Below are positions 62,683 through 64,000 of a DNA stretch of 64,000 nt, one piece after another (within the stretch, counting starts at the first letter, position 1; every line of letters begins with the position of its first letter). A model generated the notes under the pieces. The model had not been told where the DNA came from, ran no database searches, and was given only the letters and a program-made list of their open reading frames with translations. The position numbers and the translations under genes were made by a program. The DNA lies in IMG/VR virus record IMGVR_UViG_3300020577_013187, positions 8,233 through 72,232 of that record; one strand, 5' to 3'. The DNA comes from a virus (lineage: Duplodnaviria > Caudoviricetes).

Positions 62683-62767
62683 TGGAAGTAGGTGGGATTC
62701 GAACCCCCGAAGGTCTATGACCACTTGATTTACAGTCAAGCTCCTTTGGCCTCTTGGATATATTTCC
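62683..62767 (-). tRNA. trnY: tRNA-Tyr (GTA), type II with long variable arm; A5.C68 mismatch and bulged T-stem
   Basis: cttga-ctGTAaa-tcaag anticodon arm, ggtc-ata-gacc variable arm, TTCGAAT T-loop, A73 discriminator; CCA not encoded. Confidence 0.85.
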
Positions 62768-63524
62768 TTTTATTTTTTTAGTTTTCTTCGGGGTATCTTT
62801 CTTCATATGCCTTCCAAGCTTCTTCATACCAATCCCAATTATCTACCCCTGCATTTTTTAAACAATCTAAAAAACGACTGTCTTGTAAAAGTCTTTTGTA
62901 TTCGTCTTCTGAAATTGTAATAGTTTTTTCTTTATTTTTTTTGTCACTCATAACATATCCTTATTTTATAATATTAATTAATCTTCTATATAAAGAGGTA
63001 TGCTCACAAAATAATCTTTAGAATATTCATAATCAAATTCTTCATGTGATAAAATAAAACGACGCCTTTCAAAAACAAAATTTTCAGGATCAGGGATTCC
63101 ACAAAACAATCTAGCTTTTTCATTTAAAGGTACAATAATTTCAAAAGGTAGATTGTTTTGTGGTAAAGGCATAATTTTATAGCATCCACATCTAGTCATT
63201 AAAGCAACACGAAGTTTTTTAGACATAAAATATTAACAATTTTCAGATTCTATTTCAAGGATAGATGGATCATACTTTTCTAAGTATTCTCTTATATTTA
63301 AAAATTTATCAGAACCACTTTTATTGACATCATTTATTATTTTTTCTGCTTCCATTAAACGATTAATTAAAGAATTGATTTCTATTACTAATTCAGCATT
63401 TATAGCCACTAATCTTCTATAATTATTTACTGAAGAAATTTCAATTTGTCCCACTTCTTTAAATGATTGAATAACCCATTTCTTAGTTTCTTTTAAACTC
63501 ATAAAATTTTTTAATTAATAAAAA

Positions 63525-63627
63525 CAGGCCTTGCAGGAATCGAACCTGCTTTTGCTTGCAAGCATGCCTTTAACAAAAAAGGACGTATGTAGTACTCAAG
63601 CAAGTTTTACCAATAAACTATAGGCCC
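63525..63627 (-). ncRNA. tRNA-like RNA (103 nt) with a 40-nt insert in place of the anticodon loop
   Basis: GGGCCTA/AAGGCCT acceptor (G.U and A.A pairs), GTTT-attggta-AAAC D arm, TGCTT/AAGCA stem enclosing 40 nt, GCAGG-TTCGATT-CCTGC T arm. Confidence 0.75.
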
Positions 63628-63636
63628 TTAAATTAA

Positions 63637-63773
63637 TAGAGCAGGTTGGAGTCGAACCAACTGGCCATTCACTCCACCGACGTTCCCAGCTAATATCTAG
63701 CTGTACAGGCAACGGTTTACCGATAGCCAAGTTATTGCCTCTCTTTGCGTGTCACCGTCCACGCCGCTGCTCT
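63637..63773 (-). ncRNA. tRNA-like RNA (137 nt) with a multi-hairpin domain in place of the anticodon/variable arms
   Basis: Perfect AGAGCAG/CTGCTCT acceptor, GCGTG-gacggtga-CACGC D arm, GTTGG-TTCGACT-CCAAC T arm; internal aggcaa/ttgcct, cgg-taaa-ccg and cagcta-gatat-tagctg stems. Confidence 0.8.
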
Positions 63774-64000
63774 AACCTAAATTTAAACCTACTACTACAC
63801 TATAGACCTTAGATTTTACCATTCAGTATCTTCATCCCAAGGAGATCTCATTCTCTTAACTCTATAATCAGACCTTCTTTCAATCGGGATCTCATCTTGA
63901 TGATATGAATTAGCTTCTTGAAAAGAATAAAATTCTTTTTCATAACTCTCATCATCACTAAAAGAATCATACTTATTCTTTTTTTCAACTTTATGCATAA

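What the first reader, a model, noticed from the sequence alone, without database searches (positions are those of the whole stretch)
63637..63773. 137-nt tRNA-like RNA with perfect acceptor, D and T arms but a multi-hairpin domain instead of an anticodon arm
Seen in sequence: a perfect 7-bp acceptor, 5-bp D stem and canonical TTCGACT T-loop enclose about 85 nt folding into extra stems (aggcaa/ttgcct with nested cgg-taaa-ccg, and cagcta-gatat-tagctg). No 7-nt anticodon loop is identifiable. Established: T4 encodes two stable RNAs of unknown function (species 1 and 2) in its tRNA cluster, and tRNA introns have been reported in huge phages. Inference: the intact tRNA elbow and acceptor suggest selection for RNase P/CCA processing and tRNA mimicry, for example a decoy for anticodon nucleases or tRNA-sensing defences, or a spliced precursor.
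Basis: partly seen in the sequence, partly recalled or inferred. Interest (0 to 1): 0.75.

Follow-up and report, generated by a model that had tools for sequence, protein, structure and literature searches.

The report
Phage tRNA-shaped RNA with swappable middle
This is a real phage gene for a small RNA that keeps the ends and elbow of a tRNA but has a lineage-specific folded insert where the anticodon arm should be. It belongs to a large uncatalogued family related to the long-known, still unexplained "RNA2" of phage T5.

Summary
On the minus strand, 63773..63637 has a perfect 7-bp acceptor, C8-G9, a 5-bp D stem with an 8-nt loop, a 5-bp T stem with loop UUCGACU, and 85 nt in place of the anticodon and variable arms.

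It is not a decoding tRNA, an intron-bearing tRNA, a tmRNA or a tRNA-Sec. Rfam and ARAGORN do not call it, and no single deletion gives a convincing cloverleaf.

A near-identical relative phage keeps the arms, with one base changed, but carries a completely unrelated 99-nt centre.

The D-arm 19/20-mer retrieved 150 complete elements (122 unique). They came from metagenomes, IMG/VR phages and MAGs of many phyla:
- There are 80 different acceptor strands, all paired, with all four Watson-Crick types at six of the seven pairs.
- An eighth pair (-1/73) is present in 70%.
- Centres run from 23 to about 300 nt and fall into 103 unrelated clusters.

A covariance model of the family also hits a second paralog in this phage and phage T5 RNA2, which is annotated "tRNA-like stable RNA with unknown functions".

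Most likely this is a non-decoding tRNA-chassis RNA cut out by tRNA-processing enzymes, with an exchangeable payload domain. Its function is unknown. This scan has already found analogous Leu-type chassis families on other DNA.

The parts
63767..63773 (-). Acceptor stem, 5' strand (AGAGCAG). U at 63774 can add an eighth pair with the discriminator.
   Evidence: In the family this strand takes 80 different sequences, always complementary to the 3' strand.
63765..63766 (-). Linker C8 G9 (C instead of the near-universal U8 of tRNAs).
   Evidence: Invariant in alignment A1. Also present in T5 RNA2 and in the second paralog of this phage.
63747..63764 (-). D arm: 5-bp stem GCGUG/CACGC with the 8-nt loop GACGGUGA. 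This is the signature of the family.
   Evidence: The exact 19/20-mer was found in at least 120 metagenome loci, 41 IMG/VR loci and MAGs. The stem is kept through changes on both sides in the paralog (GUGUU/AACAC) and in T5 RNA2 (UGGUU/AACCA).
63662..63746 (-). Hypervariable centre (85 nt) in place of the anticodon and variable arms. About 50% G+C in a roughly 30% G+C phage. It ends in the conserved A before the T stem.
   Evidence: It is replaced by an unrelated 99 nt in the near-identical relative L003. Family centres fall into 103 clusters out of 122. The last base is A in 111 of 122.
63645..63661 (-). T arm GUUGG-UUCGACU-CCAAC.
   Evidence: Four of its five pairs covary in the family.
63637..63644 (-). 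Acceptor stem 3' strand (CUGCUCU) plus discriminator A. No CCA is encoded; UUAA follows.
63813..63840 (-). Promoter-like site TTGGGA-16-(TG)TAAAAT, about 40 nt upstream of the RNA. It is a candidate promoter of the small-RNA cluster.
   Evidence: a consensus match only. The same stretch precedes the tRNA-Pro gene in L003.
63525..63627 (-). Neighbouring second tRNA-like gene, 9 nt downstream, with a 31-nt insert in the anticodon region. It is probably co-transcribed.
   Evidence: Rfam tRNA scores 33.6 bits. The relative keeps the stem through a compensatory change, UGCUU/AAGCA to UGUUU/AAACA.

Best explanation
The element is a gene for a non-decoding 'tRNA-chassis' RNA of the same architectural class as phage T5 RNA2.

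Shown here:
- It has a tRNA-type acceptor/T minihelix, a linker and a D arm.
- The chassis is conserved and covaries across at least 122 distinct phage-borne copies.
- The region that would hold the anticodon and variable arms is a lineage-specific domain of 23 to about 300 nt with no common motif.
- That domain is exchanged as a cassette between near-identical phages. Where it is shared, it is better conserved than the flanking DNA.

Inferred:
- The RNA is transcribed with the adjacent tRNA-like genes and released by the host's tRNA-processing enzymes: RNase P at the 5' end, RNase Z or exonucleases at the 3' end, with CCA added afterwards.
- It then accumulates as a stable small RNA.
- It stays out of translation because it lacks an anticodon loop. 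In most members the acceptor/T branch has 13 pairs, as in bacterial tRNA-Sec.
- The chassis provides processing, stability and possibly recognition by a conserved partner. The variable centre is the working payload, binding a protein or an RNA and adapted to the particular host or conflict.

What the payload binds is unknown.
For: - Anatomy of the element.
- The relative L003/L004 has identical arms (one change, C27 to U) and an unrelated centre, while its flanks are about 95% identical.
This gives 150 complete and 122 unique elements.
- Covariation: 99.7% of cells paired, score 0.61 against 0.12 in shuffles, 0 of 500 shuffles as high, slid controls 33-48%. A shifted 5' strand closes in 1 of 148 cases.
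- The eighth pair (-1/73) is formed in 70%, with all four Watson-Crick types.
- Model R1 finds a second paralog in this phage, with compensatory changes in the acceptor and D stems and a U-run after it.
- R1 also finds T5 RNA2 at 36 bits, E about 1e-6. Its annotated 5' end lies at -1.
- Non-decoding.
- The centre is under selection. Shared centres are 84-97% identical where the flanks are about 70-85% and only partly alignable. Compensatory changes are seen in L030/L200 and L005/L114. The centre is 51% G+C in a 29% G+C locus.
- Phage origin: IMG/VR genomes and a CRISPR spacer in a Verrucomicrobiaceae MAG that covers the acceptor and D arm of one such element.
- 9 of 14 complete carrier phages have no canonical tRNA, so the RNA is not a by-product of tRNA clusters.
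Against: - There is no expression, end-mapping or aminoacylation data for this RNA or any metagenomic member.
- The family was collected with an exact D-arm word and a closure rule. The invariance of the D arm and part of the pairing percentage are therefore due to ascertainment.
- Centres fold only modestly better than shuffles (median z -1.3) and share no motif.
- The window's centre has no significant antisense target in its own genome.
- A centre that only needs to be some stable fold would also give compensatory changes and a high G+C content.
- The near-invariant D arm suggests that the chassis itself is recognised by something. That fits a chassis-centred function at least as well as a payload-centred one.
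- The eighth pair is not kept in the closest relative (C opposite A in L003).
Confidence: 0.5

Rival explanations
1. Chassis-only mimic. The RNA works through its tRNA-like top half and D arm. It would titrate or block a factor that recognises the tRNA body, such as a tRNA-directed defence nuclease or toxin, a processing or modification enzyme, or an SmpB-like binder. The centre only has to be a stable fold that cannot be decoded or cleaved.
For: - The D arm, T arm, C8-G9 and the A before the T stem are strongly conserved, across phages from 29% to 71% G+C and hosts of several phyla.
- The acceptor sequence is free to vary, so there is no aminoacylation identity in it.
- Centres share no motif.
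- The minimal member, L020, has only a 17-nt hairpin.
- Precedent from the literature: a TLD-only tmRNA in phage DS6A, and TLD-like RNAs that inhibit tmRNA whether or not they can be charged (PMC4131195, PMC11915505).
Against: - Most centres are long (the median element is 135 nt) although phage genomes are compact.
- Shared centres are conserved better than their flanks.
- T5-like phages keep the whole RNA2, centre included.
- There is no sequence similarity to the tmRNA TLD: A3-U70 instead of G3.U70, and no RF00023 match, whereas the DS6A control scores 43 bits.
Confidence: 0.25
2. Cis-acting processing or stability element ('tRNA punctuation'). The tRNA-like fold is there to have RNase P and RNase Z cut the early polycistronic transcript, or to terminate or stabilise it. 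The released RNA would have no role of its own.
For: - In 87 of 99 unique members an ORF on the same strand starts within 300 nt downstream (median about 40 nt), often with a ribosome-binding site.
- The downstream genes are early, replication or recombination genes: RecT, a PDDEXK exonuclease, DnaN, an AAA ATPase.
- The paralog in this phage is followed by a U-run.
Against: - A minihelix would suffice for RNase P and RNase Z. This reading explains neither the near-invariant D arm nor the long conserved centres.
- Short intergenic distances are the rule in phages anyway.
- By its GenBank annotation, T5 RNA2 accumulates as a stable RNA.
Confidence: 0.1
3. Interrupted or unconventional true tRNA. 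The centre holds an anticodon arm plus an intron or insert that is removed, or tolerated, to give a decoding or suppressor tRNA.
For: - 'Enigmatic introns' are reported in the tRNAs of Lak megaphages (PMC6784885).
- The neighbouring gene B looks like a tRNA with a 31-nt insert.
- This phage encodes RtcB.
- ARAGORN at a lowered threshold proposes Asn(AUU) with a 46-nt intron.
Against: - Single-deletion scans give only marginal scores: at most 111.6 in the window and at most 111.0 in L003. The proposed identities differ (Asn/Tyr against Thr/Asp).
- ARAGORN of 122 members. With introns allowed it of 122 marginally, with unrelated anticodons.
- The insert-free 75-nt member lacks U33 and a normal loop.
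- No EndA is encoded.
- RtcB is absent from 29 of 30 carrier phages.
Confidence: 0.05
4. Selfish or decaying sequence. This would be a mobile tRNA-derived cassette, or a pseudogene, that persists by hitch-hiking and recombination at its conserved arms, with no benefit to the phage.
For: - The gene appears in unrelated genomic contexts, with no conserved neighbour.
- The centre is exchanged between near-identical phages.
- Some phages carry 2-3 copies.
Against: - Stems are almost perfectly maintained through compensatory change in more than 100 lineages.
- The RNA is retained in compact, complete 32-75 kb phage genomes.
- RNA2 is conserved across 436 T5-like records.
Confidence: 0.07

Closest known systems
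Phage T5 RNA2 (AY543070, 32959-33083; annotated 'tRNA-like stable RNA with unknown functions')
   Same: - The order of parts and several details are the same: a 7-bp acceptor, C8-G9, a 5-bp D stem, an 8-nt D loop that begins GA and ends GA, a centre of about 66 nt without an anticodon loop, an A before the T stem, a 5-bp T stem with a UUCGAAU loop, and no encoded CCA.
- The base at -1 pairs with base 73, and the annotated 5' end includes it.
- It lies in a tRNA cluster.
- It matches my family model R1 at 36.0 bits, E about 1e-6.
   Different: - The D-stem sequence differs (UGGUU/AACCA) and the D loop is GAUGGGGA.
- The centre is unrelated.
- The host is enterobacterial and the phage is 120 kb with a full tRNA set.
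- Within T5-like phages the centre is conserved. In the metagenomic family it is hypervariable.
- The function of RNA2 is itself unknown, so membership explains the architecture and not the role.
Phage T4 species 1 and 2 RNAs (rnaC, rnaD) and T5 RNA1
   Same: They are small stable RNAs in phage tRNA clusters with tRNA-like 3' parts and unknown function. T5 RNA1 has a Leu-tRNA-like D arm with a long insert.
   Different: - R1 gives only 18 bits for rnaC, with broken acceptor and D pairs, and no hit for rnaD or T5 RNA1.
- rnaC has about 30 extra 5' nucleotides.
- T5 RNA1 belongs to a different, Leu-type chassis. That type is the one reported earlier by this scan on other DNA.
Bacterial tRNA-Sec (Rfam RF01852) and allo-tRNAs
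   Same: - It is the best sub-threshold Rfam match for short family members, at 23.8 and 27.3 bits.
- In 70% of members the acceptor/T branch has 8+5 pairs.
- The UUCGACU T loop and an extended D stem with a G-rich loop are also shared.
   Different: - The scores are below the gathering score of 47.
- The window's own copy gets no match.
- There is no UCA anticodon arm and no regular long variable arm.
- The discriminator is not G.
- No Sec machinery is implied.
tmRNA tRNA-like domain, including the TLD-only form of mycobacteriophage DS6A
   Same: The design is a tRNA-like top half with the anticodon arm replaced by other RNA. The phage-encoded minimal form is thought to act by titrating a tRNA-domain binder (PMC4131195).
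   Different: - There is no G3.U70 (A3-U70 here, and variable across the family).
- A true D stem is present.
- There is no RF00023 match, whereas DS6A scores 43 bits.
- ARAGORN finds no tmRNA in 122 members.
YrlA / bacterial Y RNAs
   Same: They are non-coding RNAs with a tRNA-like elbow that do not decode.
   Different: - As I recall, the tRNA-like module of YrlA is permuted relative to a tRNA: the ends lie in the Ro-binding stem, and the T arm comes before the D arm.
- Here the order is that of a tRNA, with the ends in the acceptor.
- There is no Rfam match.

Membership tests
Canonical tRNA (RF00005) | Cloverleaf with a 5-bp anticodon stem and a 7-nt loop (U33, purine 37), detected by tRNA models. 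| tested here: not met
   No RF00005 match at the gathering threshold or up to E = 10. ARAGORN at default settings finds nothing. 0 of 122 family members are called.
Intron-containing tRNA (BHB or other spliced) | Removing one insert restores a good cloverleaf with the same identity in homologues. | tested here: not met
   All single deletions were scanned. The best scores are 111.6 (Asn AUU) in the window and 111.0 (Thr UGU) in L003. Neither exceeds the 109-116 of the real tRNAs in the locus, and the proposed identities disagree.
Intron-containing tRNA (BHB or other spliced) | A splicing endonuclease or ligase is available, or co-occurs with the element. | tested here: not met
   PF01974 is absent from the phage. 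RtcB is present here but in only 1 of 30 carrier phages. Host enzymes could not be tested.
tmRNA / TLD-only tmRNA | G3.U70 alanine identity, a tmRNA-type D loop without a stem, and a match to RF00023. | tested here: not met
   The third pair is A3-U70, and it takes any Watson-Crick type in the family. There is no RF00023 match. The positive control, DS6A, scores 43.2 bits.
tRNA-Sec (RF01852) | 8/5 acceptor/T branch. | tested here: inconclusive
   The -1/73 pair is formed in 70% of members and in the window (U-A), but not in L003. The real 5' end is unknown.
tRNA-Sec (RF01852) | UCA anticodon arm, long variable arm, and a model score over the cut-off. | tested here: not met
   There is no match for the window. 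L020 and L013 score 23.8 and 27.3 bits against a cut-off of 47.
T5 RNA2-type tRNA-like stable RNA | The shared architecture: acceptor, C8-G9, a 5-bp D stem with an 8-nt loop (GA...GA), a centre without an anticodon loop, an A before the T stem, then T arm and acceptor. Also a cross-match by covariance model. | tested here: met
   R1, built without T5, matches T5 RNA2 end to end at 36.0 bits, E about 1e-6 in 8.5 kb.
T5 RNA2-type tRNA-like stable RNA | Accumulates as a discrete stable RNA in infected cells. | not testable with these tools
   No RNA run holding this stretch was listed. Only the GenBank annotation of T5 speaks to this.
T4 species 1 RNA (rnaC) | Sequence and structure homology to rnaC. 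| tested here: inconclusive
   R1 gives 18.1 bits, E 0.008, with mismatched acceptor and D pairs. Only the T arm and an AGCG...GACGG stretch resemble it.
YrlA (Y RNA-like) | Permuted tRNA-like module with a Ro-binding closing helix. | tested here: not met
   The order here is acceptor, D, centre, T, acceptor. There is no Rfam match. The description of the YrlA layout is from my own knowledge.

The most novel reading that the evidence does not exclude
Phages of many bacterial phyla carry a common, modular RNA platform. It consists of a translation-inert tRNA chassis that the host's own tRNA enzymes excise and stabilise, and into it lineage-specific payload domains are swapped by recombination at the conserved D and T arms. 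The payloads would be host-specific effectors in phage-host conflict, for example RNA sponges or aptamers against defence proteins or their signals, or mimics of host RNAs. This would give the 50-year-old orphan RNAs of T5 (and perhaps T4) a function, and it would reveal a new class of RNA-based counter-defence.
Probability: 0.2. Interest if true: 0.85.

Novelty: new member of a known kind. Interest (0 to 1): 0.58.

Why it matters
Stable tRNA-like RNAs in the tRNA clusters of T4 and T5 have been known for decades, as their GenBank annotations record, and they remain without a function.

This window links an uncultured AT-rich wastewater phage to T5 RNA2. It also shows that the architecture is a widespread phage family and not a curiosity of one lineage:
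- It occurs in IMG/VR genomes, metagenomes and MAGs across many phyla.
- It has a near-invariant elbow, a free but always paired acceptor, and a centre that differs in almost every lineage.
- The family is absent from Rfam 15 and invisible to tRNA finders, so these genes go unannotated.

T5 is culturable, so the question becomes testable: delete RNA2 or swap its centre, then look for host-dependent phenotypes and binding partners.

If the centre is a payload, this is also a natural version of the 'tRNA scaffold' that laboratories use to express recombinant RNAs.

Tried and rejected
- **Intron search.** I deleted every possible single segment and scored the products with ARAGORN, in the window and in L003. 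This gave only marginal, mutually inconsistent calls.
- **Splicing enzymes.** No EndA is encoded. RtcB does not co-occur with the element.
- **tmRNA reading.** There is no RF00023 match and ARAGORN finds no tmRNA. R1 gave 29 bits on DS6A by pairing the tmRNA-like 3' end with a stretch inside the gp33 coding region. I read this as chance in G+C-rich DNA, because the D loop there is unlike the family's.
- **Conserved partner protein next to the RNA.** I compared ORFs within 4 kb of the 104 elements then in hand, all against all. No family was shared by more than 6 loci.
- **Relatives through neighbouring proteins.** Two related-loci scans found nothing. A third gave two loci without the element. 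The 60-aa neighbour has no homologues beyond itself.
- **GenBank phages.** Searching with the 301-nt region and then with the 30-nt 5' part gave only short matches inside protein genes.
- **Antisense target of the centre in its own genome.** The longest match is 12 nt, within the range of shuffled centres.
- **Common motif in the centres.** None was found. AGGC[AG] near the 5' end is about two-fold enriched, which is weak.
- **Expression.** No RNA holder was listed for this stretch. The runs I laid were DNA contigs.
- **Literature.** Searches for tRNA-like phage decoys, tRNA-Sec-like phage RNAs and T5 stable RNAs found no description of this family.
- **Chance matches.** Many exact D-arm matches in G+C-rich bacterial genomes are chance matches inside coding sequence and have no T arm or closure.

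Full report
**Where the window comes from.** The window is bases 8233-72232 of a 72.2-kb IMG/VR virus record that is about 31% G+C and estimated 62% complete. The finding lies 228 nt from the contig end.

**The observation.**
- On the minus strand, 63773..63637 reads: acceptor AGAGCAG, C8 G9, D arm GCGUG-GACGGUGA-CACGC, 85 nt of centre, T arm GUUGG-UUCGACU-CCAAC, 3' acceptor CUGCUCU, discriminator A.
- The thermodynamic fold is only mildly better than shuffles (z -2.07) and prefers partly different pairings.

**What it is not.**
- Rfam 15 gives no match to the element, either at gathering thresholds or up to E = 10. It does call the neighbouring gene (63627..63525) and tRNA-Tyr (62767..62684) as tRNAs.
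- ARAGORN finds only tRNA-Tyr at default settings. With introns allowed it adds the neighbour. Only at a lowered threshold does it propose a poor Asn(AUU) with a 46-nt intron for the element.
- I deleted every possible single segment and rescored. The best is 111.6 (Asn AUU). For the relative's copy the best is 111.0 (Thr UGU), built from an arbitrary junction. The solutions are marginal and disagree with each other.
- The phage has no tRNA-splicing endonuclease domain.

**A close relative.**
- Laying public contigs on the region showed a 56.9-kb relative. It aligns to the 3' and 5' arms of the element but has 100 other letters in place of the central 86.
- I fetched this contig as L003 through the identical 60-aa neighbouring protein; a second copy is L004.
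- Its element (L003:10311-10461) has the same acceptor, D and T arms, with a single change (C27 to U, which keeps a G.U pair).
- Its 99-nt centre shares nothing with the window's centre beyond two 7-mers. The flanks are about 95% identical.
- In L003 a canonical tRNA-Pro(UGG) precedes the element. In the window it is deleted down to a 5' remnant.

**A large family.**
- The 19-mer occurs in 41 IMG/VR contigs and 49 genome contigs.
- I accepted an element only if a T arm was followed directly by a strand complementary to the 7 nt upstream of the D-arm word. This gives 150 complete elements, 122 of them unique, of 75 to 352 nt (median 135).
- Most unclosed matches in G+C-rich genomes lie in coding sequence and are chance.
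- The acceptor 5' strand takes 80 different sequences. Six of the seven acceptor pairs show all four Watson-Crick types with almost no mismatches; the seventh is G-C in nearly all, which the search word imposes. A 5' strand shifted by 5 nt closes in 1 of 148 cases.
- On a 43-member alignment, 99.7% of cells pair, against 33-48% for slid partners. The covariation score is 0.61 against 0.12 in shuffles, and 0 of 500 shuffles are as high.
- Two caveats apply. The closure rule inflates the pairing percentage. The D-arm word makes that arm invariant by construction.

**Further family features.**
- The base before the T stem is A in 111 of 122.
- T loops are UUCGACU or UUCAAUU.
- No CCA is encoded, and position 75 is U in 84 of 122.
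- The -1/73 position is paired in 70%: G-C 41, U-A 30, A-U 8, C-G 5. Further out the background is about 40%. Most members can therefore form an 8+5 branch, as in bacterial tRNA-Sec.
- Accordingly, the only Rfam model that comes near short members is tRNA-Sec, at 24-27 bits against a cut-off of 47.
- ARAGORN calls none of the 122 as tRNA or tmRNA. With introns allowed it makes 9 marginal calls with unrelated anticodons.
- The 75-nt member L020 is exactly tRNA-sized. Its 'anticodon' hairpin has the loop GCUUGGC, with no U33.

**A covariance model.**
- R1, built from the 43-member alignment, scores the window element at 72.6 bits. That match is by construction, since the element was in the alignment.
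- R1 finds one to three copies in each of 14 near-complete carrier phages.
- It reveals a second, divergent paralog in this same phage outside the window, at G000:C1:2311-2439. This copy sits 12 nt after a tRNA-Ser(UGA) and is followed by a U-run.
- The paralog's acceptor (AGAAUAG) and D stem (GUGUU/AACAC) differ from the window copy by changes on both sides of the pairs. This confirms the 5-bp D stem, which the word-based collection could not test.

**Context.**
- The carriers are phages of 32-75 kb, several with terminal repeats.
- 9 of 14 near-complete ones have no canonical tRNA.
- No protein family recurs next to the element.
- The next gene downstream is usually close and on the same strand. 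Where recognisable, it is an early, replication or recombination gene.
- A 16-repeat CRISPR array in a Verrucomicrobiaceae MAG holds a spacer covering the upstream flank, acceptor and D arm of an element like L045.
- A promoter-like site with an extended -10 lies about 40 nt upstream of the window element.

**The centre.**
- The 122 centres fall into 103 similarity clusters, 90 of them singletons.
- They share no motif and fold only modestly better than shuffles.
- The centre is nevertheless not junk. Where two loci share a centre type, the centre is 84-97% identical over its full length, while the flanking 250 nt are about 70-85% identical and only partly alignable. Sometimes the acceptors differ too, as in L005/L114, or the two loci come from MAGs of different phyla, as in L140/L141.
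- Stems inside centres change by compensation: L030/L200 has GGCGG/CCGCU against GGUGG/CCACU.
- Centres are about 50% G+C even in a 29% G+C phage.
- Some centres contain T-arm-like hairpins, and so does T5 RNA2.
- The window's centre has no significant antisense match in its own genome.

**Known relatives.**
- Earlier notes of this scan describe analogous 'anticodon-less' families built on a Leu-tRNA chassis, and they pointed to T4 rnaC/rnaD and T5 RNA1/RNA2. I tested these.
- R1 matches T5 RNA2 end to end at 36.0 bits (E about 1e-6). The shared features are C8-G9, a 5-bp D stem, an 8-nt GA...GA loop, an A before the T stem and a -1/73 pair. The GenBank feature starts at -1.
- T5 RNA1 is not matched and has a Leu-like D arm.
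- T4 rnaC reaches only 18 bits, with broken stems.
- RNA2 is conserved over its full length in 436 T5-like records.
- The TLD-only tmRNA of phage DS6A (PMC4131195, PMC11915505) scores 43 bits on the tmRNA model, whereas no member of this family does. The family is therefore not tmRNA-derived.

**Reading.**
- Shown: a real, selected, phage-borne RNA gene with a tRNA chassis and no decoding arm. It is a distant member of the T5 RNA2 kind, and its centre is exchangeable yet selected.
- Inferred: maturation by RNase P, RNase Z and the CCA-adding enzyme; exclusion from translation; and a payload role for the centre (about 0.5 for the whole reading).
- Main rival: the chassis itself is the active part, as a mimic or titrator (0.25).
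- Lesser rivals: a cis processing signal (0.1), selfish DNA (0.07) and a spliced true tRNA (0.05).
- This scan has found the same kind of thing before on other DNA, though with a different chassis.

Noticed in passing
window 63525-63627 (-): A second tRNA-like gene lies 9 nt downstream. Rfam tRNA gives 33.6 bits, with 48 nt where 17 are expected. In the relative L003 its anticodon-type stem is kept by a compensatory change and the acceptor changes G.U/G-C to G-C/U.G. No consistent 7-nt anticodon loop can be derived from the two versions.
   Followed up: partly
window about 63790-63808 (-): This is a remnant (the first 17 nt or so) of a tRNA-Pro(UGG) gene. The gene is intact in the relative (L003:10198-10268, 60 bits), and here its 3' two thirds are deleted.
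   Followed up: partly
G000:C1:2213-2439 (+), outside the window (locus L215:64-290): tRNA-Ser(UGA) is followed after 12 nt by a 129-nt paralog of the finding (R1 39 bits). The paralog has compensatory changes in the acceptor and D stems, a different centre and a trailing U-run.
   Followed up: partly
L129:1-1040: A 16-repeat CRISPR array in a Verrucomicrobiaceae MAG. The spacer at about 500-533 covers the upstream flank, acceptor and D arm of a family member like L045. This gives a host for that lineage.
   Followed up: partly
window 62933-63593 compared with L003:10560-10820: The two small ORFs at 62978-63502 are replaced in the relative by other sequence that includes a 54-aa ORF with a T7 Gp5.9 (RecBCD inhibitor) Pfam hit. 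Early-gene cassettes therefore differ between near-identical phages.
   Followed up: no
L011/L126, L080, L120, L179, L021; T5 RNA2 (L225:3520-3540): Several centres contain an extra T-arm-like hairpin (GGUUCGAUUCC-type), that is, a second elbow-like module nested in the chassis.
   Followed up: no
L224:28478-28560 (JN698994): The TLD-only tmRNA of mycobacteriophage DS6A, known from the tmRNA literature, is not annotated in the GenBank record. It lies just upstream of the dnaN-like gp34. Family members L034 and L050 also lie upstream of a dnaN-like gene.
   Followed up: partly
G002, G014, G015, G018 (IMG/VR carrier phages): Some phages carry two or three family copies within 0.1-2 kb. The extra copies have variant D loops or D-arm insertions (R1 26-44 bits).
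   Followed up: partly
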